Shown: in pieces, positions 4,749-25,319 of the stretch
Layout: each line of letters starts with the position of its first letter
Position numbering within the stretch: position 1 is the first letter of the stretch
Translations under genes and position numbers: made by a program
The notes under the pieces: model-generated
Seen by the model: only the letters and a program-made list of their open reading frames with translations
Told to the model about the DNA's origin: nothing
Databases searched by the model: none
Origin: a virus
Reading direction: 5' to 3' (one strand)
IMG/VR virus record: IMGVR_UViG_3300005264_000001
Coordinates: 1-64,000 of that record
DNA: 64,000 nucleotides

Positions 4749-4786
4749 ATACAAAGACTTATAAACAATAGAACATTAATAATATT
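4749..4786 (+). promoter_or_regulatory. early-type archaeal BRE/TATA promoter (AAAGACTTATAAA), leaderless
   Basis: TTATAAA ends 21 nt before the ATG. The same spacing occurs before ATGs at 7695, 12102, 17530, 19282, 20948, 24488, 24750, 33802, 35732, 36793, 43204, 54958(-) and 55533(-). Confidence 0.85.
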
Positions 4787-7694: not shown

Positions 7695-8639
7695 ATGAAT
7701 AATAAATCAGTAGTATGGTGGAGTGGTGGTAAAGATTCAACAGCAGTAATTTTAAAATTACTTGAACTTGGTTATAGAGATTTTAATGTCGTATTTATAG
7801 ATACTGGAATTGAATTCGATGAAATGTATACATACATAGAGAGAAGTAAGAAATATTTCTTAAAGTTTGGTATAAAAGTAAAAACATATAAGTCAAAAAA
7901 ATATACTTGGGAAAATATGTTTTATTCTATAAAACAAAAAGGAAAGAACAAAGGGGATAATTACGGTTTTCCTTATACTTGTGGTGCCTGGTGTAATGCT
8001 AGGTTGAAAGTAGACCCGATGAATGAAGCAAAAAAAGATTTTAAAGACTATATAGAAATAATAGGATATGCGATAGATGAAAAATCAAAAATAAGACAAT
8101 TAAAGATAAAAAATAAACTTAATGGGATAGATAAATTCAAAACAGTTAAATATGTTAAAGATAAAAAAACAAAAGAGATAAGAGAAGTTACATTAGAACA
8201 TGACATTTCAAATGAAAGATATTTATTAGCAGAACATAATATGAAAGAATCTGATTGTTTAGAATTATGTAAAAAACATAATCTATATAATCCATTATAT
8301 GATTTGTTTGGAAGAACTGGATGTTGGTGTTGCCCTAAACAACCATTAGCAAGTTTAAGAATCATTTATTTAAAAATGCCTGAAAAATGGAATCAACTAC
8401 GAGTGTGGCAAAAAAATAGTAAGAATTCATTTAGACCTAAAGAATCAATTTTTGATTTACAAGAACGATTTGAATCTGAGATTATCGAATCTAAGATTAA
8501 GCTTTTAAAAAAAACAGTATTAAAACATTATTTAATTTTTAAAACAACAATTTTTCATTACTCAACAATAACAATAATTCTATCATTACTCAACAATCAA
8601 CAACTTTATAAACACGTAATCATTCTTATATTATACTGA
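7695..8639 (+). CDS. PAPS-reductase-family (DndC-like) enzyme; true C-terminus may be in the -1 frame ending at 8542
   Basis: PP-loop SGGKDS, FIDTG, WCNARLK, RTGCWCCP. Confidence 0.85.
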   Translation: MNNKSVVWWSGGKDSTAVILKLLELGYRDFNVVFIDTGIEFDEMYTYIERSKKYFLKFGIKVKTYKSKKYTWENMFYSIKQKGKNKGDNYGFPYTCGAWCNARLKVDPMNEAKKDFKDYIEIIGYAIDEKSKIRQLKIKNKLNGIDKFKTVKYVKDKKTKEIREVTLEHDISNERYLLAEHNMKESDCLELCKKHNLYNPLYDLFGRTGCWCCPKQPLASLRIIYLKMPEKWNQLRVWQKNSKNSFRPKESIFDLQERFESEIIESKIKLLKKTVLKHYLIFKTTIFHYSTITIILSLLNNQQLYKHVIILILY

Positions 8640-8725: not shown

Positions 8726-8793
8726 AAAACAAAAGACTTATAAAGAGTTAATCATTATTATATATTATGAGTTGAAAAACTCGAGAAAATAAA

Positions 8794-10105: not shown

Positions 10106-10573
10106 ATGGCAGGAGCTAATATAGTTGATGTACAAAGAATCGTTACAGAAAAAATTAGATTTACTGGAGGGGATTATATCCTCAACACTAACGATAAAAC
10201 ATTATTTAAGATGTTTCATAAGATTAAAGATTACGGAGACGAATTAAAGAAGAGTGTAATTGAAGCATTTTTACAAGATAAGTTTAAAAATGTTAATAAA
10301 GAATACAGACACGAAATATTTGTAAGAGATATGGAAGTATTCACAAAAACAATCTTGAAATACTTCGATGAGTTTGTGGAAAATATGACTGAAGCTGATA
10401 CATTGGAAACAATCGACCAATTAAAAGCATATGATATTGAACTTGAATCAGATGACGAAGATGAAGAGGAAGATGAAGAGGAATCTCGTGAAATGACTTA
10501 TGAAGAAAAACAAGCAGCTTTAAGAAATAACAATACAAATGTAAATGATGTAAACAATGAGGCTAGTGCGTGA
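10106..10573 (+). CDS. acidic hypothetical protein
   Basis: Start MAGANI at a TAAAATGG junction; poly-D/E tract. Confidence 0.65.
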   Translation: MAGANIVDVQRIVTEKIRFTGGDYILNTNDKTLFKMFHKIKDYGDELKKSVIEAFLQDKFKNVNKEYRHEIFVRDMEVFTKTILKYFDEFVENMTEADTLETIDQLKAYDIELESDDEDEEEDEEESREMTYEEKQAALRNNNTNVNDVNNEASA

Positions 10574-11418
10574 TGGCAACACCTGTTAAAAAAGAAGTAA
10601 CTGAAACTCTTGAACAAAGAAGAGCAAAATGGTATACTAAAGTTAAAGAACTTGAAAGTAAAAAATTTTGTATTGTTGTTGGAACTTCTGATAAAAATGG
10701 AATGTCTGATGGAACAGGTAAAACTGCTTTAACTGTAAGTTATGGTATTGATTACTTAAAAAAGAATCCTACCAAAAACATCTTCATAATTGATATTGAT
10801 TGTAGTGTTGATTATATTGCTAAGTACTATACTGAATATACAGATAGAATTTTAGTATTTCAACCTAACTTTGTTAAAGAAGATAATACAGCTGATTTTA
10901 CAAGATGTATTAAAGAGATTAATGCTGTTTGTGGTGATATTGCTAAAAATTATGAAGAGTTAAATATTGGAATGATTATCTTTGATGGATTAACACCTTT
11001 TAAAAAGATGTGTGAGATGCAGATGAGAATGGATAAATTTATTACAACTGAAGGAAAAGTTAATACTTTGTTTTGGCAGACTAGAAACAATCATTTTTTC
11101 AAGTCATTGAATACATTAAGAAGAGTACCAATTCATAAGTTTTTCATTGCTCAAGATGATTTCTTAGCATTTAATCAAACTATTGACATGGGTGGGACTG
11201 TTGTAAAAGTAGGAGCACTTCAAAAATCAGTAAGTGAAATGTGTTTACAAAGAATCCTTTGTTCAAAGAAAGAAAACTCAAATGGTGATTATGTTTTAAC
11301 AGCTAAGATTGATAAAGCAAAAGATGCACCCGAGAAACTCAACAAAGAGTACAAATTTATGATTGTAAATGATAAAGGAGTACGATTTAATACTGATAAA
11401 GTGTTTGAAGGATTATAA
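10570..11418 (+). CDS. RecA-superfamily AAA_24/Sak4-like ATPase
   Basis: DGTGKT, IIDID, IIFDGLT. Confidence 0.75.
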   Translation: MMATPVKKEVTETLEQRRAKWYTKVKELESKKFCIVVGTSDKNGMSDGTGKTALTVSYGIDYLKKNPTKNIFIIDIDCSVDYIAKYYTEYTDRILVFQPNFVKEDNTADFTRCIKEINAVCGDIAKNYEELNIGMIIFDGLTPFKKMCEMQMRMDKFITTEGKVNTLFWQTRNNHFFKSLNTLRRVPIHKFFIAQDDFLAFNQTIDMGGTVVKVGALQKSVSEMCLQRILCSKKENSNGDYVLTAKIDKAKDAPEKLNKEYKFMIVNDKGVRFNTDKVFEGL

Positions 11419-11867: not shown

Positions 11868-11922
11868 TTTATTTTTAATTCTAAATACAAACATTTATAA
11901 ACTAATCACTATTTTTATTATT

Positions 11923-12130: not shown

Positions 12131-12844
12131 ATGATTAAAATAGAAAATACAAAATTTGAAAAGTTTCTGAAATATATTTCAGTAGAAAAAGTTAATGAAC
12201 AATTAGTAATTGAATTTACTGAAAATGGTATTGAAGCAAACGTTTTCTCAATAGACCACACGTTAGCAGTAATTGCTACACTTAAAAAAGAAGACTTTAT
12301 TGAATATGAAAATATTAATAAAAAAGTTGGAATTAAAAATGTAGAAAGTTTAATTAATATTATGAAAGTTCTTTCAAATGATGTTGAATTAAACGTAATA
12401 GAAGAAAACAATACAGAATTCTTATCAGTAGTTAGTGATAAAACAAAAGCAACTGTATCAGTAGCAGATATTGATAGTATTGAAACTAAATTAGACCCTA
12501 AATTTAAAACAATGATTCTAGAAAAAGACACAAATTTTGTATCTTTAGATAGAAGCACAATAAATAAGTTATCTTCTATTATTGGGAGTGTTGAAAAATT
12601 AACTAAGTTAACTATTAAAGATAATGTATTAAATGTATTAATGGGTAGTTCAAGTATAGTTACAATTAATAATACTATTGAAAACTTTGAACATGTAGAT
12701 GAAAAAGGAACTTATGGAGTTAAAATTAGTAATGTTTTAAAAACTATTAAAGATGAAGATGTAAGTTTATGTGTAATTGAAGGAAATTTAATTCTTAGAG
12801 TAGAAAAGTACAACTCATTAGTTTTACTAGCATCGGAGGAATAA
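12131..12844 (+). CDS. pcn: PCNA-type DNA sliding clamp
   Basis: 237 aa; IEFTENGIEANVFSIDHTLAV and DFIEYE..KKVGI match the PCNA N-terminus; adjacent to RFC. Confidence 0.8.
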   Translation: MIKIENTKFEKFLKYISVEKVNEQLVIEFTENGIEANVFSIDHTLAVIATLKKEDFIEYENINKKVGIKNVESLINIMKVLSNDVELNVIEENNTEFLSVVSDKTKATVSVADIDSIETKLDPKFKTMILEKDTNFVSLDRSTINKLSSIIGSVEKLTKLTIKDNVLNVLMGSSSIVTINNTIENFEHVDEKGTYGVKISNVLKTIKDEDVSLCVIEGNLILRVEKYNSLVLLASEE

Positions 12845-12847
12845 ATA

Positions 12848-13747
12848 ATGGAGTTATGGACTGAAAAATACAGACCAAAGAAATTTGAAGACGTAATTGG
12901 AATTCCAAAATCTATTGTGAATTCCATTAAAGAAGGTGGAATTCCACATCTTTTATTATCCTCAAATAGTCCTGGTACAGGAAAATCTTCGAGTATGAGA
13001 ATTATCATTGAACAAAATAAAGCTGAGTGTTTACAATTAAATGCAAGTACTGAAAATGGTGTAGATGTTGTAAGAAATGAAATTAAAAACTTCGCTATGT
13101 CAAAATCTATTAACGGGACACCACGTATTATTGCACTAGAAGAAGCACAACAACTTACAAATCAAGCACAAAGAGCTTTATTAGATGTTATGGAAAGATA
13201 TGAGAAAAATTGTAGATTTATTTTAACTTGTAATAATTATAAGAAGTTAGATGATGCATTAATTTCAAGATGTCAGCATCACAAATACGAGAAACCAAAG
13301 AAAGAAGATATTTGGGATTTAGTACAAAAGATTTGTGAAAAAGAATCTTTATCAGTGAGTGAGAAATTAGTTCAATTACTTGTTGATAGATATTATCCGG
13401 ATATGAGAACTATTGTAAATAAATTACAAGAATTCAAAGAACTAAATATCAAAATTACAGAAGATTTAATTTTAAGTGATGTTAGAGTCTCAGAAAAACT
13501 ATTTGAATTATTACAGAATAAAACACCATTCACAAAAATAAGACAATGGGTATTAAATGAGAATATCAATTATGAATCAGCACTTGTGGAAATGTATATT
13601 TATTTATTAGATAATAAAGACAAGTTTAAAGGTAAAGTTTCTAAGATTTTAGAAAAGATTGTAATTTGTAATAGGTATATGAAGTCTTGTATATCACAAG
13701 AAATTGAATTTGAACATATGTTGAAATCAATTTTAACAATAATTTAA
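12848..13747 (+). CDS. rfcS: replication factor C small subunit (clamp loader)
   Basis: LWTEKYRPK, PGTGKS, LNAS, EEA, SRC motif. Confidence 0.95.
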   Translation: MELWTEKYRPKKFEDVIGIPKSIVNSIKEGGIPHLLLSSNSPGTGKSSSMRIIIEQNKAECLQLNASTENGVDVVRNEIKNFAMSKSINGTPRIIALEEAQQLTNQAQRALLDVMERYEKNCRFILTCNNYKKLDDALISRCQHHKYEKPKKEDIWDLVQKICEKESLSVSEKLVQLLVDRYYPDMRTIVNKLQEFKELNIKITEDLILSDVRVSEKLFELLQNKTPFTKIRQWVLNENINYESALVEMYIYLLDNKDKFKGKVSKILEKIVICNRYMKSCISQEIEFEHMLKSILTII

Positions 13748-13753
13748 ATTAAA

Positions 13754-14215
13754 ATGGTATTAATGAGTATGCAAGCAATATTTGAAAGAAGATACAAAGA
13801 TGTAGATGTAAATCTACTAGTACCTTTGAATCGTTGGAGTAACTTCTGTATACAAAATGAGAACGTTACAGTCGATATCAATAGACATTTCTTTGTTGGT
13901 AATAAGAATATACTACTGGGTCAATTATACTATTGGAATCGTTCCCCTAAGTTTATTAAATATCACAAAACCGAGAAATTTAATAAAGATAGATTTGATT
14001 TTGTATCACAACTCTTACAAAGAAAATACAAATACGGCACAAATGAGATTGAGTCAATGAAAAGACTTATTGAGATTATGATTAAGCGTTCTGATGAAAT
14101 GGAAAAATTAGCAGGTTATTTTGGTCTAGAATTAAAAGACAGAAAGAAATTAGGTTTAAAAGTGTTGAAACCAAAGATTGAAAAATCAACTAAAAAGATT
14201 AGAACACTATTTTAA
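13754..14215 (+). CDS. putative clamp-loader A subunit (T4 gp62/RFC-L analogue)
   Basis: Position after RFC, size, PKFIKY segment and a C-terminal IRTLF PIP-like motif. Confidence 0.55.
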   Translation: MVLMSMQAIFERRYKDVDVNLLVPLNRWSNFCIQNENVTVDINRHFFVGNKNILLGQLYYWNRSPKFIKYHKTEKFNKDRFDFVSQLLQRKYKYGTNEIESMKRLIEIMIKRSDEMEKLAGYFGLELKDRKKLGLKVLKPKIEKSTKKIRTLF

Positions 14216-14218
14216 AAA

Positions 14219-15430
14219 ATGAAAGAAGAAATTTTAAAAACAAGAAAATTAAAAGTATTTGAGATGTTTGCTGGTTATGGTGGGGCATCTTTTGGTTTAC
14301 AAAATGCAGGAATAGAGCACGAATCAGTAGGTTTTAGTGAGATAGAACCTTGTAGTATTAAATGTTATGCACAAAACCATATTGGAGTAAAAAATTCCGG
14401 TGATTGTTATAAAATAAAAACTGAAGATTTACCTGATTTTGACATATTAACAGGGGGATTTCCATGTCAGTCCTTTTCAATAGCTGGAAAAAGAGAAGGA
14501 TTTAAAGCAAAGAAAAAAGGACAACTATTTTTTGAAATTATAAGAATAGCAAAAGATAAAAAGCCTAAATATATGTTACTTGAAAATGTACAGGGTTTAA
14601 TAAGTCACGATAATGGTAACACTTTAAGTGTAGTACTACAAGAATTAAGGGTTTTGGGTTATGGTGTAGAACATAAACTACTTTATACTAAAGATTATGG
14701 AATACCTCAAAATAGACCTAGAATTTGGTTTGCTTGTAAACTTGGTGGTTGGGAATTAGGAGAATTTAGTTGGCCTAAAAAAGAAAAAACTTGTGAAAGT
14801 ATTTGGAATATTCTTGAAAAAGAAGTAGACCATAAATATTACCTAAAAAAAGATTTGTTAGAAACACTCAATAGAATAGAAGTTGAGAAAGGTAGAACAA
14901 AAATATTACAATCAGATGGATTATTTCAATTTAGGTATGATAAGGGTTTGGTTAAAGCAGATACATTTACTTTAATGGCAAACTTTAAACCTAATGATTT
15001 GTCTAATATGTTATTTATTAGACAACCACAAAAAAGTTTTATCGGAGGTTATAGATATGACAAAGGTATAGAGATATTAAGTGATAAAAATGTATGTTCA
15101 ACATTAACAGCAGCAAAGAATCAAATAATTATTGGTGATTTTAGGTATGATGAAGGAATAAGAGTTAGAGAAGATGAGATATCACCAACATTAACTACTA
15201 ACAACAATACAATAACAAACTTTTCTATAACAACATTTAGAAGTATAACACCAAAAGAATGTTGGCGATTAATGGGATTTAAGGATGGTCAAATTAATGT
15301 TGAAGGTATGACAGATAGACAACAGTATTTCATGTCTGGTAATGGTTGGGATATTAATGTTGCAAGTTTAATTTGGAAACAAATGTTAACTAATAAATTT
15401 GAGAAAAGAGGATTATTTAAATTACTTTAA
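14219..15430 (+). CDS. C5-cytosine DNA methyltransferase
   Basis: FAGYGG, GFPCQ, ENV, QNRPR, GNGW. Confidence 0.95.
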   Translation: MKEEILKTRKLKVFEMFAGYGGASFGLQNAGIEHESVGFSEIEPCSIKCYAQNHIGVKNSGDCYKIKTEDLPDFDILTGGFPCQSFSIAGKREGFKAKKKGQLFFEIIRIAKDKKPKYMLLENVQGLISHDNGNTLSVVLQELRVLGYGVEHKLLYTKDYGIPQNRPRIWFACKLGGWELGEFSWPKKEKTCESIWNILEKEVDHKYYLKKDLLETLNRIEVEKGRTKILQSDGLFQFRYDKGLVKADTFTLMANFKPNDLSNMLFIRQPQKSFIGGYRYDKGIEILSDKNVCSTLTAAKNQIIIGDFRYDEGIRVREDEISPTLTTNNNTITNFSITTFRSITPKECWRLMGFKDGQINVEGMTDRQQYFMSGNGWDINVASLIWKQMLTNKFEKRGLFKLL

Positions 15431-15631
15431 ATGGAACTTATTGATAAAATTATTAAACTTGTTAGTAGATTAAAATTACAAAATAAATGCCCAACTAGAG
15501 TTTATATAAAAGAAAAGTATTTAAAAGAAACAACGGTATTTAATCCAGTTAAATACTATTCTGTTAGTGAAAAAGATGAAGAGATGTTTATGAAAGATAA
15601 TTTTATAAATAGAGACTTCTTTATAATTTAA
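15431..15631 (+). CDS. hypothetical protein
   Basis: Coupled ORF. Confidence 0.6.
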   Translation: MELIDKIIKLVSRLKLQNKCPTRVYIKEKYLKETTVFNPVKYYSVSEKDEEMFMKDNFINRDFFII

Positions 15632-15632
15632 A

Positions 15633-17495
15633 ATGGGAAAATATATACAAAAATTAGTAAAAACAGAGAAAGAGTGGCAACAACTAGTTGAATTATCAAA
15701 ACAACATAAAGTGATGAGTTTTGATACTGAAAATGGAGGTGTTGATAAACTACATGCTGTAAATGTTAAACATTGTAATCCTGCTGGATTTAGTGTCTCG
15801 TTTGATGGTATTACAGGTTTTTATGTACCTATTAATCATACAGATATTAAAACAGAATTTCACAAGAGATTTAACGAGTTATTAGAAACTGTAATTGTAT
15901 TACCTATGTGGAATGCTCCATACGATGGTGGTATAGTTCAATATAGATACAACGTAGACATTGAAGACAAATATTGGTGGGATTGTATGGTTGCTCAACA
16001 TCTAATTGATGAGACAGATAAGAAAGGATTAAAATATAATTCAGAAAAATACTTTGGTTATACACAGGACCACTTTGATTTTGGTGATTGTAGTAAAGTA
16101 TCAAGTGAAGCTATTTTCAAATATGCTTGTGATGATGCTATTATGACCTTTAAACATTATGAAAGATTACAACCTCAACTAAAAAAAGAAGGGTTATCAA
16201 GACTATTTAGAGAAAGAGAAATACCTTTACAACCTGTATTGGCTCACATGAAGTGGCACGGTGTTACGTTTGATACTGAAAGAAGTATTGAGATTGAAGA
16301 AAAAGCTAAGAATAGATTAGATGAAATAATTCCTGAGATTTGTGCTGTAACTCCTGAGATTAGAATGCAAAAAACATTATTTGGTGGCCCTAGTATTCCA
16401 ATCACTGATGTGAATAAACCTAATCAATTAAAGAAACTTTTATTTGATGATTTAAACTTAACAATTACAGAAAAAACTGAAACAGGTTTACCTAAAGTTG
16501 ATAAGAGAGCATTAAAAAATATTAAAGATGAACATCCTATTATTCCATTATTAATAGAAAATTCAGTTGTTAAAAAGATTTACTCAACTTACACGTACAG
16601 TTTACGAACTAAAGTTATGAAGGATAATAAGATATTTATGAACTTAAATGATGTAGGCACAAAAACCGGACGTTTCGCGTCAAACTCGCCGAATCTACAA
16701 AATTTACCATCTAATGATGACTATCCTATTAGAGAATGTTTCATTGCTCCTAAAGGTTATAAAATGATAGCAATTGATTATTCACAACAAGAATATAGAT
16801 TTTGTGGGCATTTGTGTGATTGTAAAAACTTTAAAGAGTTGTATAAGAAAGGTAAAGATTTACATCTAACAACAGCTAATGATTGTTATAATCTAGGAAT
16901 TCCAGAGGAAGGCTTAATTAAGTCAAGTCCAAAATATAAAGAGTATGAAGAGAAGTTTCATAAACACAGAAAATTAGCTAAATCAATTAATTTTGGTATT
17001 CTATATGGTATGGGTGCAAAAAGTTTAGGTGAACTACTTGGAGTAGATGAATCAGAAGGGCAAAGAATTATTGATGCTTATTCAATAGCAAACCCTGAAA
17101 TTATTACTAAAATGAAGCACATACACAAACTTGTAGATGCACAAGGTTTTGTGAGAAATTATTATGGGAGAAAAAGAAGATTTACAAAAAGACATGGGAG
17201 ATTTTATTCAAATGGAGATAAAAGAGAAGCCTTTAATCATCAAATACAATCATCATGTGCGGACATGTTAAGAGGAGTGTTCATAGAGATTTACAAATAT
17301 GTAAAGACTACAAATGATGAAGTCATAATAAATTTTACAGTTCATGATGAACTTGTTTTTTCTGTGAAGGATAATGAAAGAAAAAACTCGCATCTTAAAA
17401 AATTAATTAACATTATGGAAACCACAGAGAAGTTTAGTATATATATGACAGCCGATTGTGGTGGTTTTTATAATAATTATGCAGATGCGAAATAG
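15633..17495 (+). CDS. polA: family A DNA polymerase with 3'-5' exonuclease
   Basis: Exo motifs FDTE, NAPYD, YACDD; TGRFAS..PNLQN; motif A DYSQQEYR, motif B RKLAKSINFGILYG, motif C VHDEL. Confidence 0.96.
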   Translation: MGKYIQKLVKTEKEWQQLVELSKQHKVMSFDTENGGVDKLHAVNVKHCNPAGFSVSFDGITGFYVPINHTDIKTEFHKRFNELLETVIVLPMWNAPYDGGIVQYRYNVDIEDKYWWDCMVAQHLIDETDKKGLKYNSEKYFGYTQDHFDFGDCSKVSSEAIFKYACDDAIMTFKHYERLQPQLKKEGLSRLFREREIPLQPVLAHMKWHGVTFDTERSIEIEEKAKNRLDEIIPEICAVTPEIRMQKTLFGGPSIPITDVNKPNQLKKLLFDDLNLTITEKTETGLPKVDKRALKNIKDEHPIIPLLIENSVVKKIYSTYTYSLRTKVMKDNKIFMNLNDVGTKTGRFASNSPNLQNLPSNDDYPIRECFIAPKGYKMIAIDYSQQEYRFCGHLCDCKNFKELYKKGKDLHLTTANDCYNLGIPEEGLIKSSPKYKEYEEKFHKHRKLAKSINFGILYGMGAKSLGELLGVDESEGQRIIDAYSIANPEIITKMKHIHKLVDAQGFVRNYYGRKRRFTKRHGRFYSNGDKREAFNHQIQSSCADMLRGVFIEIYKYVKTTNDEVIINFTVHDELVFSVKDNERKNSHLKKLINIMETTEKFSIYMTADCGGFYNNYADAK

Positions 17496-17529
17496 AAAGA
17501 TTTATAAATAATATTTAATTATTTATTAT

Positions 17530-19173
17530 ATGATTGAGAAAAACTTAATAAAACAATTAAAAGAGAACGACGAAGATTACAATTTCTATCCTACATCAAA
17601 AAGTATGATTAAAACAATATTTAATCATATAAATAATAATTATGTAGATATTTTAGACATAGGTTGTGGTACCTGTAACTTTAAAAATTATTTTAATGAA
17701 TTATCAGAAGAAAAATATAATTATGAACAACAAAACAATATTCTAAGTGAATATCAAAGAGAAATTCCAAAGAAAAAAATAAATAATTATTTTGTAATTG
17801 AGAAATCAAAAATCTTAATAAATAAATTAGATAAAGATTCTATGATTCTAGGTACTGATTTTTATGAGACTAATTTAATAGATAAACCTGTAGGAACTAT
17901 CTTTTGTAATCCACCTTACGATGATTTTAAAAATTGGATGTATAAAATTATAGATGAAGGTAATTGCTATGATATGTATTTAATAGTTCCTCAAAGATGG
18001 AAAGAAGATACTAGAATAAATGACTTAATTACAAAAAGAAAATTTACTTATGAAGTATTAGATAGTACAGATTTTTTAAATGCTGAAAGACAAGCAAGAG
18101 CTAAAGTTGATATTCTACACATAACTAAAAAAGTTAAAAATTATAGAAATGATAGTTTAGATAGTATTGAAAAAGATTCATTTAGTGAATGGTTCAATGA
18201 AGAATTTCCTATGAGTAGAGAAGAGATAGAAACAACACCTGAAGAAACTATTAAGAATGAATTAGTTAATGGAGAAGATAAAACAGAGATTCTTGTTAAC
18301 CTGTATAATAGTGAAATTACAATATTTAATAATCATTTTAAATCTATATGTTCACTTGATTTAAGTATTTTAGAAACAATAGGAATTGATAAATCTAAAG
18401 TTATGAAAACAATACAACAAAAAACAAAAAGTTTAAAAATACTTTATTGGAAAATGGTTTTTGAACAATTAGACGAAATAACAACCAGATTAACAACTGA
18501 AACAAGAAGAGAATTGTTTGAGAAGTTTACAGAATGTCATGCAATAGACTTTAATAAAAGAAACATTTACGCTATAATTGTATGGGTTATAAAGAACTCT
18601 AATGACTATTACAATAAACAATTAATTAGTTTCTATAAAGAACTATCTGATAAAACTAATGTTACCCCGTTTAAGTCTAATCAAAAGTTATTTGAAAATG
18701 ATGAGTGGAGATGGAATAGTTTTAGTACAAAAGCAACACATTACACACTAGATTATAGAATTATTTGTAATAATAGATTAATAAACGTAAAGCAAAACTG
18801 GAACGGAGGAGGACTAGAAACAGGTTATGACTATGACGAGAAAATTTCTGATATCAAAGTAGTGTTTAAAAATATAGGATTTGAAATAAAAAATATTGAA
18901 AAACCAACGAGTTTCGGAGAGAAATGTTATGCATACGATAATGAAGGAATCCAAATGTTCGAATTTAAATGTCATAAAAATGGTAATTTACATTTAAAAC
19001 TAAATGTTGAATTTACAAAAGCAATGAATGTAGAAGTAGCAAGATTACTTGGTTGGATTAAAAATAAAGAAGATATTAAAAGAGAATTTTCAAAAGAAAT
19101 GGCAAAAGGTGCAGAGAAATACTTTAAATCAAATCAATGTATAGGTTTTTCTGATATTAAGTTGTTACAATAA
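17530..19173 (+). CDS. N6-adenine/N4-cytosine DNA methyltransferase with DUF4942-like C-terminus
   Basis: FYPT, LDIGCGT, NPPY, FLNAERQAR, KNGNLHLK. Confidence 0.85.
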   Translation: MIEKNLIKQLKENDEDYNFYPTSKSMIKTIFNHINNNYVDILDIGCGTCNFKNYFNELSEEKYNYEQQNNILSEYQREIPKKKINNYFVIEKSKILINKLDKDSMILGTDFYETNLIDKPVGTIFCNPPYDDFKNWMYKIIDEGNCYDMYLIVPQRWKEDTRINDLITKRKFTYEVLDSTDFLNAERQARAKVDILHITKKVKNYRNDSLDSIEKDSFSEWFNEEFPMSREEIETTPEETIKNELVNGEDKTEILVNLYNSEITIFNNHFKSICSLDLSILETIGIDKSKVMKTIQQKTKSLKILYWKMVFEQLDEITTRLTTETRRELFEKFTECHAIDFNKRNIYAIIVWVIKNSNDYYNKQLISFYKELSDKTNVTPFKSNQKLFENDEWRWNSFSTKATHYTLDYRIICNNRLINVKQNWNGGGLETGYDYDEKISDIKVVFKNIGFEIKNIEKPTSFGEKCYAYDNEGIQMFEFKCHKNGNLHLKLNVEFTKAMNVEVARLLGWIKNKEDIKREFSKEMAKGAEKYFKSNQCIGFSDIKLLQ

Positions 19174-19281
19174 ATTTAAAATACTCTAATTCTTTTTAAC
19201 TATTATGAATTAATGACAACTACAATACAACAATTCTAAACTAATAGAAACACTTATAAAGAGATAATCATTAATATTATT

Positions 19282-19539
19282 ATGATTAAGAAATCAGAAG
19301 AGATAAAAAAAGAATATGAATATAATGACATATTCTTAAAAGCAAAAAAAGATATAAGTGAGATTATAAGAAAAGCCGATGATGAAGTTTCAAAGATTAT
19401 AGAAGAAAAGAAAGTTGAAACTTTTAGTAACATTACAGAAATGATTAATGTTCAAAATGACTTAAAGTATGCTGAATTAGAAGGAGAAAATTTAGATAAA
19501 TTAAGAAACGCATTTTATAATTGGAGAAATTGTAAATGA
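19282..19539 (+). CDS. hypothetical coiled-coil protein
   Basis: Leaderless ATG with its own TATA. Confidence 0.65.
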   Translation: MIKKSEEIKKEYEYNDIFLKAKKDISEIIRKADDEVSKIIEEKKVETFSNITEMINVQNDLKYAELEGENLDKLRNAFYNWRNCK

Positions 19540-20384
19540 ATGAAGATAATTTAATAATTTATCATTCAGCAGATTTTGACGGGAAATTTTCACGTGATGT
19601 AGTTGAAACATATTTAAACGACAATCAAGAATCATTTAAATCAGTAGGTTGGAATCACAACGAGAAAACTATTGAAATTGATAGATACAAGAATGTATAT
19701 ATTGTAGATTTACCTATCACATGTGCTCAAGATTTTGAAAATAATCTAGGTAAAATTACTTGGATAGACCATCATGCTGCTGTAATTGAACAATACAAAG
19801 ACTTAAAAGTAAAAGGTTTAAGAAGAGTTGGAAGAGGAGCTTGTGAACTATGTTTTAATTATTTGTTCCCTCATGAAGAATTACCTAAATCATTAGAACT
19901 TGTATCAAGTCATGATGTTTGGGATTTAAGTGAAGAAACAGAAAACTTTCAATATGGGTTAAGAACAATCGATGAGAAATATCAAAACTTGTGGGATTCA
20001 AATGGTAAGATTGATGAAATTCTAGATACAGGTAAAACTATTTTAAAGTATCAAGTAGCACAAAATAAAATTCTTATGAAAAATGCACGTTATATTGAAT
20101 TTGAAGGGTATAAAACTATTTGTATGAATAATTCTATAGGTGGTAGTGAAATCTTTGACTCTATCGACCCAGAGACGTATGATATTATGTTAACTTATCA
20201 TAATACAAAAGACAATGAGTGGGCTTATAGTGTATATAGTAAAAAAGAAATTGATGTATCGATAATTGCTAGAAAGTTTAAAGGTGGGGGTCACTATCAC
20301 GCTGCAGGCGCAACTTTACCTTATCTATTACCTGAATTAGATAATATAAATCGAGAATTAAAACTCAAAGGGACATTAGATTAA
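19536..20384 (+). CDS. DHH/DHHA1 phosphoesterase
   Basis: YHSADFDG, IVD, WIDHH, GGGHYHAAG. Confidence 0.92.
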   Translation: MNEDNLIIYHSADFDGKFSRDVVETYLNDNQESFKSVGWNHNEKTIEIDRYKNVYIVDLPITCAQDFENNLGKITWIDHHAAVIEQYKDLKVKGLRRVGRGACELCFNYLFPHEELPKSLELVSSHDVWDLSEETENFQYGLRTIDEKYQNLWDSNGKIDEILDTGKTILKYQVAQNKILMKNARYIEFEGYKTICMNNSIGGSEIFDSIDPETYDIMLTYHNTKDNEWAYSVYSKKEIDVSIIARKFKGGGHYHAAGATLPYLLPELDNINRELKLKGTLD

Positions 20385-20385
20385 A

Positions 20386-20418
20386 ATAGTTGTTACTCAT
20401 CAATAACAACTATCTTTT
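20386..20418 (+). terminator. hairpin followed by a T-tract
   Basis: ATAGTTGTTA-8nt-TAACAACTAT then CTTTT, directly after the DHH stop. Confidence 0.45.
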
Positions 20419-20476
20419 ATAAACAATACATAATTCTTAGAGTATACTTATATAATAAATAATATATAAGTATCTT

Positions 20477-20902
20477 ATGGTTGAAATTAAAATACCTAAG
20501 AAAGTAGAAGATGTTTACAATAAGACTGTTTCTTATTGTAAAGAAGACCCTAAAAGATTTAAAAGAATTTTAGGTTTTATTGTATTACTAATACTAATGA
20601 ATTTCTGGAGTAATACATTAACACATGCAGATATTCTACAATGTGACCAAGGTACATATAGAGTTCCTGGATATATTCAAGATAGAACAAATGTTAATCT
20701 AGATTATATCGAGATAGAAGATTACAAAATATCCTCAGATGGTTGGATATGTAAAATAAATGTGTATGCTGAACCTCAAGCAAATGAGAGATATGGAAAG
20801 AAAGTATATAGTGATAGTATTTCAGAACATGGTATTAAAACAAGAAAGAGTAGAGGATACTCAAGTACAGAAATAGTTCAACAAGCAACTATTTATAATT
20901 AA
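20477..20902 (+). CDS. membrane-anchored hypothetical protein
   Basis: Single TM segment ILGFIVLLILMNFW. Confidence 0.7.
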   Translation: MVEIKIPKKVEDVYNKTVSYCKEDPKRFKRILGFIVLLILMNFWSNTLTHADILQCDQGTYRVPGYIQDRTNVNLDYIEIEDYKISSDGWICKINVYAEPQANERYGKKVYSDSISEHGIKTRKSRGYSSTEIVQQATIYN

Positions 20903-20947
20903 TTCTTTAAAACAAACACTTATAAACACTTAATCATTATTATTATT

Positions 20948-21847
20948 ATGATTGAAAAAAACAAACTAAAGAATAGGTTAAGTAAAAGTAAACTAAAATC
21001 TTTTGCGATTTGTCCCAAAAGATATTGGTTCGATAGAATGGAACCAGCACCATTTTTAGCAAGCACAGCAACTGTCAAAGGAACTCGATTACATAGTATT
21101 TTTGATAATTTGTATAAATCATTTGGTGATATACAAGAATACAGAAGTAAAGAACAACTGTATGATGAGTTAATGAGTCAACTACGTGAAACAAAAGAAG
21201 ATACATATAAAGAGATTGCTAAAACTGATTGGAATCTTCCTAAACATACACCTGAACAAAAACAAATGTTCTTAGACTTATTACCTGAGAATGAAAAAGT
21301 TGAGTATGAAAAACAAGTTAAAATGTTTGTTGATTGGATTGAACAATTAGGATTTACTTATCCTGAAAATTGTGAAGAAAAGATTTATGATGAAGACTTT
21401 GATTTTGTTGCTTTATATGATAGATTAGAATTTGATGGAAAAGTTAGAATTGTAATGGATTACAAGACAGGTAAAGAACATGATTTAAGTGATTATACAG
21501 ATGATGAACTTCCTTGGTATGCTTTCTTTATTGAGAAGAAATATCCAGAGAAAAAGATTGATTACGTATTAATTTATTTCGTTGATTTAGGTAAAGCAAA
21601 ATTAGTAAAATACACTGAAGAAATGTCTATGAATGCCATGAGTAAATTTCAATTTTTAGAAGATGGTGTTGATGAATGTATTAGAAATAATAACTGGCCA
21701 GCTCAATTAAATAATTATTGTGGTTATTGCCCTTATAATGAGAAATGTAAAATGTATCAATGGAAATTAAAAAAGAAAGAACAAGATAAAGTAAAGAAAG
21801 AAGGTGTAAAGAGTGTCACTAAGAAAAACACTCTATTTGGAAAATGA
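20948..21847 (+). CDS. Cas4/RecB-like PD-(D/E)xK exonuclease
   Basis: LSKS...CP, GTRLH, DRL, DYKTG, C-terminal CGYCPYNEKC. Confidence 0.88.
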   Translation: MIEKNKLKNRLSKSKLKSFAICPKRYWFDRMEPAPFLASTATVKGTRLHSIFDNLYKSFGDIQEYRSKEQLYDELMSQLRETKEDTYKEIAKTDWNLPKHTPEQKQMFLDLLPENEKVEYEKQVKMFVDWIEQLGFTYPENCEEKIYDEDFDFVALYDRLEFDGKVRIVMDYKTGKEHDLSDYTDDELPWYAFFIEKKYPEKKIDYVLIYFVDLGKAKLVKYTEEMSMNAMSKFQFLEDGVDECIRNNNWPAQLNNYCGYCPYNEKCKMYQWKLKKKEQDKVKKEGVKSVTKKNTLFGK

Positions 21848-24749: not shown

Positions 24750-25319
24750 ATGGTAAAGAAAAATACTACTATAAGTATAGATTCCGATATTTTAGCATTA
24801 GCTAAAACTAAAATAGGAAATATGAGTCAAGAATTTGAAAAATTTCTTGTTATGAGAATGAAATCTAAAACTATTGAAGAAACAGCAGAGAAGATAGAAG
24901 AACTTAGTATGAGTTCTATTGATAAAATAATTATTGATAATATTGAAAATAAAAACAAAGGTTATCATAGTATTATAAAGAAATGTGATACAATAAGAAG
25001 TGAGTTTATTAAGGATTATAAGAATTACCCACAAACACAAGGGTTGAAAAGAGCCGAAGAGTTACAGTTGTTATTGAATGATTTTACAAAGAATTTTTCT
25101 AGAACAGTTGAAGATATGTTATTACTAGATAAAATTAAAGAACTTGTAACTTCTATACAAGATAACAACATACCAGAAATTTGGAATTTTATTAAACATA
25201 AATATACATATGATAAAACATTTACACATCTAGCTGCTAAACTAGGTATCAAGAAAGAAAAAATTTATAATTTGCTTAAAGCAACAAAAGATGTTAAGAA
25301 AGGAGAAAATGCAGAATGA
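24750..25319 (+). CDS. ribbon-helix-helix DNA-binding protein
   Basis: N-terminal KKNTTISIDSDILALAK...NMSQEFEKFL. Confidence 0.7.
   Translation: MVKKNTTISIDSDILALAKTKIGNMSQEFEKFLVMRMKSKTIEETAEKIEELSMSSIDKIIIDNIENKNKGYHSIIKKCDTIRSEFIKDYKNYPQTQGLKRAEELQLLLNDFTKNFSRTVEDMLLLDKIKELVTSIQDNNIPEIWNFIKHKYTYDKTFTHLAAKLGIKKEKIYNLLKATKDVKKGENAE

What the first reader, a model, noticed from the sequence alone, without database searches (positions are those of the whole stretch)
12131..21847. A shared PIP-like (Q)xTLF motif may tether a family A polymerase and several enzymes to a viral PCNA
Seen: QKTLF in the PolA thumb (16368-16382), roughly where T7 Pol carries its thioredoxin-binding insert. Related motifs are C-terminal IRTLF in the clamp-loader partner (14198-14212), C-terminal KNTLFGK in the Cas4-like nuclease (21824-21844), C-terminal KRGLFKLL in the C5 methylase (15404-15427), DKTLFKMF in ORF 10106, and a hidden IKTLFNF in the PAPS-reductase-like gene. 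Known: archaeal RFC-large PIP boxes have the form QxTLFDF, and PCNA/RFC normally serve family B or D polymerases. Inference: PolA here gains processivity from PCNA, and modification and repair enzymes ride the same clamp.
Basis: partly seen in the sequence, partly recalled or inferred. Interest (0 to 1): 0.85.

Follow-up and report, generated by a model that had tools for sequence, protein, structure and literature searches.

The report
Shared clamp-docking peptides in a virus
A 93-kb tailed virus, probably of an archaeon, encodes its own PCNA ring, and its clamp-loader partner, DNA-modifying enzymes and a nuclease all end in the same short "xLF" peptide; its family A polymerase carries that peptide in a thumb-tip loop, which suggests, without proving, that all of them dock on the viral clamp.

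Summary
The C-terminal ones are more than chance. [STGDN]LF falls in the last 8 residues 11 times against about 2 expected in this genome plus four relatives. The clamp-loader partner keeps such a tail in 11 of 12 homologues. In one relative two unrelated proteins end in the identical KGKSLFNY.

The clamp is a true PCNA by profile and fold. The loader ATPase is closest to archaeal RFC-S. The 153-aa partner is a divergent T4 gp62-type subunit that gained a basic linker plus the LF tail.

QKTLF of PolA lies in a 23-residue insertion between thumb helices H and H1. That is exactly the T7 thioredoxin-binding-domain site, at the tip of a predicted hairpin. All six PCNA-linked PolAs have an L-[F/L]-G loop there. 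Bacterial Pol I and cultured-phage PolAs lack the insertion.

T4 ligase, which binds gp45 through an internal loop resembling the polymerase tail, is a direct precedent. Binding itself was not testable here. The internal TLF of ORF 10106 is unsupported, since TLF is not enriched overall. The motif is a truncated PIP or T4-type clamp peptide, not a canonical PIP box.

It is a new variant of a known kind.

The parts
12131..12844 (+). Viral PCNA (237 aa), the proposed docking hub
   Evidence: A profile of 30 family members hits archaeal PCNAs at 4e-21 to 1e-16 and eukaryotic PCNA at about 1e-12. AF2 gives pLDDT 90 and pTM 0.87 with the two-domain clamp topology. The Foldseek top 50 are all PCNAs. 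It is the only clamp gene in the 92,961-bp genome.
12848..13747 (+). Clamp-loader AAA+ ATPase, RFC small subunit / gp44-like (299 aa)
   Evidence: PDB hits: P. furiosus RFC-S 1e-37, A. fulgidus RFC-S 1.6e-36, T4 gp44 about 4e-25. phrog_168 at 4.7e-58 and Gp44_lid. The SRC motif (S140 R141 C142) and Walker A (GTGK) are invariant in 5 relatives.
13754..14215 (+). Small clamp-loader partner (153 aa), a divergent gp62-type subunit ending in a basic linker plus IRTLF-stop (14198-14212)
   Evidence: It immediately follows the ATPase in all 5 relatives, the same gene order as T4 45-44-62. 11 of 12 homologues end in [STGD]-[LI]-[FL]-(x-[FY]). Its profile hits ~150-aa proteins, some of which pass Pfam PF16790 Phage_clamp_A. 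There is no direct Pfam or hhalign match to gp62.
14219..15430 (+). C5 cytosine DNA methylase (403 aa) with a 14-residue tail beyond the catalytic domain, ending KRGLFKLL (15404-15427)
   Evidence: PF00145 at 1.5e-72 covers residues 12-389. The tail lies outside the domain.
15633..17495 (+). Family A DNA polymerase with 3'-5' exonuclease (620 aa)
   Evidence: PF00476 at 2.7e-73 and PF01612. Klenow at 4e-50. AF2 pLDDT 93.6.
16350..16418 (+). PolA thumb insertion (aa 240-262, TPEIRMQKTLFGGPSIPITDVNK) between helices H and H1; QKTLF at 16368-16382
   Evidence: Absent from bacterial Pol I and cultured-phage PolAs, present in the uncultured clade. It occupies the same gap as the T7 TBD. AF2 predicts a hairpin with strands 245-246 and 255-256; K247-S254 form the tip. 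This is the lowest-confidence part of the model, at about 80. L249 is at least 90% conserved in the 15 closest homologues.
20948..21847 (+). Cas4-like PD-(D/E)XK nuclease (299 aa) with a 31-residue Lys-rich tail ending KNTLFGK (21824-21844)
   Evidence: PF12705 at 1.1e-18 covers residues 10-268. Orthologues in L082 and L162 are 236-237 aa and lack the tail.
7695..8639 (+). PAPS-reductase/DndC-like enzyme; a -1 shift in T4A8 (8503-8514) would end it at ...KKNSIKTLFNF, stop 8540-8542
   Evidence: PF01507 at 1.1e-13. The zero-frame tail is low-complexity. Whether this is a sequencing error or a programmed shift was not tested.
10106..10573 (+). 155-aa acidic-tailed ORF with internal DKTLFKMF (10193-10216); not supported as a clamp partner
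   Evidence: No Pfam or PHROG family and no homologue in any fetched locus. Internal TLF is not enriched.
15431..15631 (+). 66-aa ORF just upstream of PolA ending NRDFFII; a possible further clamp partner (low confidence)
   Evidence: In L002, L082 and L083 a Zn-ribbon mini-protein lies immediately upstream of PolA; in L087 the homologous mini-protein lies further upstream, next to the clamp-loader partner. They end DILKFINV, SLIKEWN, SLEEFINGN and SILEYI. The window ORF is not homologous to them.

Best explanation
The virus carries a T4-style 'clamp, loader ATPase, small loader subunit' operon whose clamp is a PCNA and whose ATPase is RFC-S-like.

A short hydrophobic plug, [S/T/G/D/N]-L-F, often followed by x-[F/Y] and preceded by a Lys/Arg-rich flexible linker, serves as the common docking peptide for the hydrophobic pocket on the front face of that PCNA. 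The small loader subunit uses it to hold the ring during loading, as the RFC-large PIP box does. The C5 methylase, the PAPS-reductase-like enzyme, the Cas4-like nuclease and a D5-type helicase (genome 65326-66624, ending VSDLFK) use it to ride the clamp behind the fork. In relatives the DpdA-like DNA transglycosylase, DUF6884, an N6/N4 methylase and an AAA_24 ATPase do the same. DNA modification and processing would therefore be coupled to replication.

PolA cannot carry a C-terminal tail, because its C-terminus is part of the conserved catalytic core. The polymerase instead presents the same plug (K-T-L-F-G-G) at the tip of a hairpin inserted between thumb helices H and H1. This is the point nearest the exiting duplex and the site where T7 polymerase binds thioredoxin. 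The loop would tether PolA to PCNA for processivity.

Shown: the gene identities, the position of the motifs, their conservation and their co-occurrence with the clamp. Inferred: all binding, and the functional consequences.
For: Clamp is a PCNA. The loader is closest to archaeal RFC-S.

Partner tails are conserved in 11 of 12 homologues: RTLF, KSLF, IDLFSI, IDLFSF, SIFDFGG, KSLFNY, KSLLDF, VGLF, RSLFSFGV, KGLFD, RGLLDY. The wider gp62-like family ends earlier, at KLKLK[VI], so linker plus LF is an add-on of this clade.

C-terminal enrichment is 11 against 1.95 expected.

Tails sit on DNA enzymes. L002 TGT/DpdA-like ends KNLFGFTK and L082 TGT-like ends SISLMGF. L162 TGT ends KSKSLNYY, and L162 DUF6884 ends KGKSLFNY, identical to that virus's loader partner. 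L087 N6/N4 methylase ends RSLFEDYK and L087 AAA_24 ends TPLFKEEP. The window genome's DUF5906/D5 helicase ends VSDLFK.

The tails lie outside the Pfam domain limits.

The PolA insertion is clade-specific and sits at the TBD site, with a hairpin tip of lower pLDDT. All six PolAs linked to a PCNA gene (window, L002, L082, L084, L087, L162) have L-[F/L]-G there.

Within one genome the loop matches the tails: window PolA KTLFG and nuclease NTLFG; L002 PolA DLFG and DpdA NLFG; L087 PolA QQTLFGG.

There are convergent cases. Other PolA lineages have short H-H1 inserts reading QLDLFGN, QMDFFGN and QNTLFGE. These resemble the bacterial beta-clamp consensus QL[SD]LF (own knowledge). One such phage encodes its own beta-clamp homologue.

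Precedent: T4 ligase binds gp45 through an internal loop, EPEGLDFLFD, that mimics the gp43 C-terminus EKASLDFLFG (PMC6212786).
Against: No complex could be modelled or measured.

The PolA loop is predicted as a fairly ordered hairpin (pLDDT about 80). It could be a structural or DNA-contacting element.

The second hydrophobic position varies in the close clade: F, L, I, M, and K in P0005. It is lost in several more distant PolAs (QLSLTG, QYDLCG, QQTFGT) whose genomic context is unknown.

A complete 45-kb relative (L004) has the insertion (DYDLLGN) but no PCNA homologue.

The tails lack the Q and the aromatic pair of a canonical PIP box.

The Cas4 tail is not conserved in orthologues.

The enrichment motif was defined post hoc, and the ORF sets include some spurious small ORFs.

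PCNA might serve other ends, such as late transcription as in T4, or a host polymerase.
Confidence: 0.6

Rival explanations
1. The C-terminal tails are real clamp-binding peptides, but the PolA loop is not. It is a structural or DNA-gripping hairpin that raises intrinsic processivity, like other thumb inserts. PCNA then serves the modification and repair enzymes, a host polymerase, or late transcription, and not PolA.
For: The hairpin is modelled with moderate-to-good confidence. Thumb inserts that grip DNA without a clamp are known: the T7 TBD with thioredoxin, and SP15-like Insert 2 (10.1101/2025.03.26.645540). The F position is not strictly kept, and the insertion occurs in a complete genome without PCNA. 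In T4 the clamp also activates late transcription (PMC2988020, listed).
Against: The polymerase is the virus's only DNA polymerase found, and it lies 2.8 kb from PCNA in a conserved operon in 5 relatives. The loop motif mirrors the same genome's C-terminal tails. QLDLFG-type loops arose separately in other PolA lineages at the same site. An exposed Leu-Phe followed by Gly-Gly at a hairpin tip is unusual for a DNA-binding element, which would be basic.
Confidence: 0.28
2. The tails dock on some other viral or host hub, such as an SSB-like protein, a protease or chaperone, or a packaging or localisation receptor, and not on PCNA.
For: No binding data exist. The tails lack the canonical PIP signature. 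A 114-aa protein with a hydrophobic C-terminus (...SIIGSIVISLFL) also ends in SLFL, which shows the pattern is not fully specific.
Against: The most conserved carrier is the clamp loader's own subunit, whose job is to hold the clamp. The carriers are almost all DNA enzymes. The peptide matches known clamp peptides: T4 gp43 SLDFLFG, and RB69 gp43 and P. furiosus RFC-L TLFDF (own knowledge; PDB 1ISQ is listed).
Confidence: 0.07
3. The resemblance is chance in a low-GC, Lys/Leu/Phe-rich proteome.
For: TLF overall is not enriched: 10 against 6.7 expected. LF alone in tails is only about 2-fold enriched, 15 against 7.2 expected.
Against: The partner tail is conserved in 11 of 12 homologues at 26-42% identity. 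Identical 8-residue tails occur on two unrelated proteins in L162. All three DpdA-like orthologues end in a short hydrophobic tail; only L002's has L-F, while L082 ends SISLMGF and L162 ends KSKSLNYY.
Confidence: 0.05

Closest known systems
T4/RB69 gp45 clamp tool-belt: gp43 C-terminal tail, gp33/gp55 tails, the internal loop of T4 DNA ligase, and the gp44/gp62 loader
   Same: The gene order is clamp, AAA+ loader, small subunit. The loader's small subunit belongs, by transitive profile evidence, to the gp62 family. There are short hydrophobic C-terminal tails after flexible linkers. One enzyme uses an internal loop copy of the tail motif (T4 ligase, PMC6212786).
   Different: The clamp and ATPase are closer in sequence to archaeal PCNA and RFC-S than to gp45 and gp44. 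The polymerase is family A, not B. The internal-loop carrier is the polymerase itself. The clients include DNA-modification enzymes. The small subunit itself carries the tail.
Archaeal and eukaryotic PCNA with PIP-box partners (RFC-large C-terminal PIP, FEN1, ligase, PolB/PolD, DNMT1)
   Same: A PCNA hub. The loader subunit has a C-terminal docking peptide; the TLF(D/N)F core resembles P. furiosus RFC-L (own knowledge; PDB 1ISQ). A cytosine methylase tethered to the clamp parallels eukaryotic DNMT1.
   Different: The canonical Qxx[LIM]xx[FY][FY] is not met: most tails stop after L-F. There is no RFC-large homologue. No family B or D polymerase was found. PolA is not a known PCNA client in archaea or their viruses. 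The papers searched state that PolA occurs only in bacteriophages (PMC3201878) and that archaeal viruses encode PolB (PMC11348598).
T7 DNA polymerase thioredoxin-binding domain
   Same: The insertion site is the same, between thumb helices H and H1 (PMC11339088, PMC10201439), and so is the proposed purpose, recruiting a processivity factor.
   Different: 23 residues against 76. There is no sequence similarity. The proposed partner is a ring clamp, not thioredoxin.
Bacterial beta-clamp binding motif QL[SD]LF, and phages pairing PolA with a beta-clamp homologue (Ma-LMM01, RSL1; PMC3201878)
   Same: A five-residue Q-x-x-L-F plug. PolA co-occurs with a virus-encoded clamp. Loops reading QLDLFGN occur at the same thumb site in other PolA lineages.
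   Different: Here the clamp is a PCNA trimer type. In Ma-LMM01 and RSL1 no motif was described.

Membership tests
PCNA / sliding clamp (two-domain, trimer type) | Sequence-profile similarity to PCNA over both domains | tested here: met
   Profile A2 against the PDB: P. furiosus PCNA 4e-21, covering profile positions 18-230 of 233. The single sequence hits PCNA_N only weakly, E 0.003, below the Pfam cut-off.
PCNA / sliding clamp (two-domain, trimer type) | Two topologically repeated beta-alpha-beta-beta-beta domains (the clamp fold) | tested here: met
   AF2 pLDDT 90 and pTM 0.87. The Foldseek top hits are all PCNA, probability 1.00, TM about 0.7.
PCNA / sliding clamp (two-domain, trimer type) | Homotrimeric ring with a hydrophobic partner-binding pocket under the interdomain connector | not testable with these tools
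   No multimer prediction was available and the model coordinates could not be inspected.
RFC small subunit / gp44 clamp-loader AAA+ ATPase | AAA+ module with Walker A, an SRC arginine-finger motif and a lid domain | tested here: met
   PF00004, DNA_pol3_delta2 and Gp44_lid. GTGK and S140-R141-C142 are invariant in 5 relatives. RFC-S at 1e-37.
T4 gp62 / Pfam PF16790 Phage_clamp_A | Direct profile match to PF16790 | tested here: not met
   No Pfam hit, even at E 10, for any of 5 members. hhalign to a T4-like gp62 gives probability 0.1%.
T4 gp62 / Pfam PF16790 Phage_clamp_A | Transitive homology and position directly downstream of the loader ATPase | tested here: met
   Profile A4 hits 34 proteins of ~150 aa at 1e-8 to about 1e-6 in loci that hold an RFC-S homologue. 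Two of these exceed the PF16790 gathering score, at 31.2 and 36.0 bits against 27. The ESM Atlas lead is a cluster with Phage_clamp_A in 34% of members, score 0.89.
Canonical PIP box Qxx[LIM]xx[FY][FY] | Gln at position 1, an aliphatic residue at 4, two aromatics at 7 and 8 | tested here: not met
   RTLF-stop, NTLFGK-stop and RGLFKLL-stop lack the Q and the aromatic pair. Only the hidden KTLFNF and the relatives' SLFNY, IFDFGG and SLFSFGV have an aromatic at +2 or +3. It works like a PIP or clamp-binding peptide but is a truncated variant.
Family A DNA polymerase | PolA palm/fingers motifs and a 3'-5' exonuclease domain | tested here: met
   PF00476 at 2.7e-73 and PF01612 at 5.8e-8. Klenow aligned over residues 14-611. 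The invariant columns of A3 include the catalytic D382, R446/K450 and HDE 571-573.
T7-type thioredoxin-binding domain | An insert of about 76 residues between helices H and H1 with similarity to the T7 TBD | tested here: not met
   The site is the same but the insert is only 23 residues and shows no similarity.

The most novel reading that the evidence does not exclude
Family A polymerases have repeatedly acquired a five-residue clamp-docking plug at the thumb tip, the T7 thioredoxin site. This turns them into clamp-dependent replicases: with PCNA in this (probably archaeal) virus clade, and with beta clamps in other phage lineages (QLDLFG loops). In the PCNA clade the same plug tethers DNA-hypermodification enzymes (DpdA-type 7-deazaguanine transglycosylase, methylases, a PAPS-reductase-like enzyme) to the ring, so the viral genome is modified as it is copied.
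Probability: 0.4. Interest if true: 0.8.

Novelty: new variant of a known kind. Interest (0 to 1): 0.7.

Why it matters
Sliding-clamp tool-belts and PIP-type peptides are textbook. A family A polymerase working with PCNA is not: the surveys I could read place PolA only in bacteriophages, mostly without clamps, and give archaeal viruses family B enzymes.

If the thumb-tip loop is a clamp tether, it would explain how a polymerase whose C-terminus is buried can still use a ring clamp. It would be a third solution at the same structural site, after T7 thioredoxin and the SP15-type inserts. It would also give a compact, engineerable processivity handle for PolA enzymes.

Clamp-tethered DpdA, methylases and a DndC-like enzyme would be the first indication that viral DNA hypermodification is physically coupled to the replisome. 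This bears on how such viruses achieve complete modification and so escape restriction.

Tried and rejected
The Logan and ENA contigs of most close PolA homologues (P0005-P0016) could not be fetched, so relatives came only from IMG/VR, JGI and GTDB scans.

(2) A single-protein pattern scan for PolA in IMG/VR found nothing. An alignment was needed.

(3) A word-index search with the clamp found only itself. The exhaustive phmmer run gave 28 distant homologues.

(4) The PCNA alignment was too divergent for the search for related loci.

(5) A direct link from the small partner to gp62 failed by Pfam, PDB profile and hhalign. Only the transitive route worked.

(6) I looked for a clamp motif in the viral ATP-dependent ligase, by analogy with T4. 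There is no LF anywhere in it.

(7) I considered that the clamp is gp45-like rather than PCNA. This was rejected, because archaeal PCNAs score best and no gp45 chain is among the 60 best matches listed (all E <= 3.1e-10).

(8) I considered a bacterial host, because one relative is binned as 'Bacilli bacterium' and the CCA-adding enzyme is of the bacterial class. It is not excluded. However, TTATAAA starts exactly 28 nt before the ATG of 22 genes with no Shine-Dalgarno sequence. That fits archaeal TATA/BRE promoters with leaderless mRNAs, and one PolA homologue is labelled Woesearchaeota.

(9) Solvent exposure of L249/F250 could not be computed, because model coordinates are not exposed to scripts.

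Full report
**What the window is.** The window is the first 64 kb of a 92,961-bp IMG/VR virus record. The first 30 nt recur at 92,858, which indicates terminal repeats of about 100 bp. GC is about 28%. The virus has a contractile-tail module with sheath, baseplate wedge and tape measure. A plus-strand replication block runs from about 1 to 25 kb. It holds:
- an ATP-dependent ligase and an SF2 helicase;
- a PAPS-reductase-like enzyme;
- PCNA, an RFC-S-like ATPase and a 153-aa partner;
- a C5 methylase and PolA;
- a DUF4942 protein, a DHH phosphoesterase, a Cas4-like nuclease and a RecU-like resolvase.

**The observation.** Every motif is at the stated coordinates. The tripeptide TLF is not enriched in the proteome: 10 seen against 6.7 expected. 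Internal copies such as DKTLFKMF in ORF 10106 therefore carry no weight, and that ORF has no homologues to test.

Position is what stands out. [TSG]LF lies in the last eight residues of 4 of 140 ORFs against 0.55 expected. Pooled with four related loci, [STGDN]LF gives 11 against 1.95 expected, P about 6.5e-6. The motif was chosen after looking.

In this genome five of the six such tails, counting the -1-frame KTLFNF tail of the PAPS-reductase-like gene, are on DNA enzymes:
- the loader partner;
- the C5 methylase;
- the Cas4-like nuclease;
- a DUF5906/D5-type helicase outside the window (genome 65326-66624, VSDLFK);
- the PAPS-reductase-like enzyme, if a -1 shift in a T4A8 run is allowed, which gives KKNSIKTLFNF followed by a stop.

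The methylase and nuclease tails lie beyond the Pfam domain limits.

**The hub.** Taken alone, the 237-aa protein barely touches PCNA_N and has no near relatives. An exhaustive search found 28 distant homologues. Their profile hits archaeal PCNAs at 4e-21. The AF2 model (pLDDT 90) has the clamp fold, and Foldseek returns only PCNAs.

The ATPase is closest to archaeal RFC-S (1e-37), ahead of T4 gp44 (about 4e-25). It keeps the Walker A and SRC motifs.

The 153-aa partner has no direct family match. Its profile does find ~150-aa proteins next to RFC-S-like genes in 34 of 80 IMG/VR loci. Some of these pass Pfam PF16790, the T4 gp62 family. The operon therefore has the T4 45-44-62 layout, with PCNA/RFC-like sequences.

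Those wider gp62-like proteins end at KLKLK[VI]. The window clade adds a basic linker plus the LF plug.

**Conservation.** Five relatives carry the same module: L002, L082, L087, L162, and L084 with PCNA only.
- The partner ends in [STGD]-[LI]-[FL]-(x-[FY]) in 11 of 12 homologues at 26-42% identity.
- Tails of this kind recur on other DNA enzymes. The TGT/DpdA-like transglycosylases end KNLFGFTK, SISLMGF and KSKSLNYY.
- In L162, DUF6884 ends KGKSLFNY, identical to the tail of that virus's loader partner.
- An N6/N4 methylase ends RSLFEDYK and an AAA_24 ATPase ends TPLFKEEP.
- L162, L002 and L082 hold 7-deazaguanine modification genes: QueC, FolE and a DpdA-like TGT.
- The Cas4-like tail is not conserved. 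The orthologues are 60 residues shorter.

**PolA.** PolA aligns with Klenow throughout, apart from about 14 extra residues around QKTLF.

The insertion is present in the uncultured clade P0002-P0034. It is absent from bacterial Pol I and from the cultured Bacillus, Listeria, Acinetobacter and Yersinia phage PolAs.

An alignment with T7 gp5 puts the T7 thioredoxin-binding domain in exactly the same gap between helices H and H1. This agrees with published descriptions (PMC11339088, PMC10201439).

The AF2 model has helix H at 215-239, a hairpin with K247-S254 at its tip, and helix H1 at 263-273. The hairpin is the least confident part of the model, at about 80.

L249 is at least 90% conserved among the 15 closest homologues. 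The next residue is F, L, I or M in 14 of the 15, and K once. All six PolAs that sit beside a PCNA gene have L-[F/L]-G. The loop resembles the tails of the same genome: KTLFG and NTLFG here, DLFG and NLFG in L002.

Other PolA lineages carry separate short H-H1 inserts reading QLDLFGN, QMDFFGN and QNTLFGE. These resemble the bacterial beta-clamp consensus. One of those phages encodes a beta-clamp homologue.

Against the idea: a complete 45-kb relative with DYDLLGN has no PCNA, and several distant members have lost the hydrophobic pair.

**Precedent and novelty.** T4 DNA ligase binds gp45 through an internal loop (EPEGLDFLFD) that copies the gp43 C-terminal tail (EKASLDFLFG) (PMC6212786). An internal-loop copy of a virus's clamp peptide is therefore an established mechanism.

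Surveys state that PolA occurs only in bacteriophages, usually without clamps. The exceptions are Ma-LMM01 and RSL1, which have beta homologues (PMC3201878). Archaeal viruses are said to encode PolB (PMC11348598). I found no paper linking DpdA to a clamp.

**Host.** TTATAAA begins exactly 28 nt before the ATG of 22 genes. It is preceded by a purine-rich stretch and has no Shine-Dalgarno sequence. This pattern fits archaeal TATA/BRE promoters with leaderless mRNAs. One PolA homologue is labelled Woesearchaeota, and another contig is binned as Bacilli. The host is probably archaeal but unproven.

**Verdict.** The C-terminal peptides are very likely clamp-docking tails (about 0.75). The PolA loop as a PCNA tether is plausible and testable (about 0.45-0.5). 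No binding was or could be tested here.

Noticed in passing
whole genome, e.g. window 4760-4786, 8731-8745, 11890-11922, 20915-20947: A near-identical promoter-like block (aaagaCTTATAAA) has TTATAAA starting exactly 28 nt upstream of the ATG in 22 genes, with no Shine-Dalgarno sequence. This fits archaeal TATA/BRE promoters with leaderless mRNAs. A second A/T-rich type (aaatatatttaaaaa) precedes structural genes.
   Followed up: partly
L002:7234-7392, L082:6168-6314, L083:744-911, L087:6290-6451, L162:9814-9975; window 15431-15631: A ~50-aa Zn-ribbon protein (CxxC...GYGxTC) lies just upstream of PolA in L002, L082, L083 and L162, and next to the clamp-loader partner in L087. It ends in PIP-like tails (DILKFINV, SLIKEWN, SLEEFINGN, SILEYI). 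The window has an unrelated 66-aa ORF at that place, ending NRDFFII. This may be a further clamp partner or a PolA accessory protein.
   Followed up: partly
L162:6099-9812, L002:6101-7237, L082:5104-6165: Relatives carry a 7-deazaguanine DNA-modification cluster (QueC, GTP cyclohydrolase I, DUF6884, TGT/DpdA-like) between the clamp loader and PolA. The window genome lacks it and has a C5 methylase and a PAPS-reductase-like gene instead.
   Followed up: partly
L135, L109, L101 (QLDLFGN / QMDFFGN) and L071, L027 (QNTLFGE); L247:1501-2649: Unrelated PolA lineages have short inserts at the same H-H1 site matching the bacterial beta-clamp motif. The record holding L027 encodes a 383-aa beta-clamp homologue (PF02767, 30.4 bits).
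   Followed up: partly
L084:1982-2725 and neighbours: A more distant PolA virus has a PCNA homologue but no RFC in 15.8 kb. Several of its proteins end in GLL or LLF (KEGLL, KGLL, IEGLL, SRLLF), and its PolA loop reads QKDLLGN. This may be a shifted flavour of the same docking peptide.
   Followed up: no
L082:207-1016, L162:2664-3473: The PCNA homologues of two relatives are about 30 residues longer and end in strongly acidic tails (DDLVDDKSDELL, DELVDEGDDLL).
   Followed up: no
genome 68381-69499(-), 71656-73050(-), 76949-77598(-), 91462-92251(+): There is an RtcB RNA ligase, a class-II CCA-adding enzyme with an HD domain, and five tRNA calls. Two of the five are found only when introns are allowed (Ile with an 11-nt intron, His with a 168-nt intron).
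   Followed up: partly
L087:9473-12787: The PolA of this relative is 1104 aa, presumably interrupted by an intein. L084 has Hint/intein hits in a radical-SAM-like gene.
   Followed up: no
window 10570-11418: A 282-aa P-loop protein ends TDKVFEGL. The AAA_24 ATPase at a similar place in L087 ends KTPLFKEEP. Homology between the two was not detected.
   Followed up: no
window 24750-25319: A 189-aa ORF has an N-terminal CcdA antitoxin-like match (PF07362, 25.7 bits).
   Followed up: no
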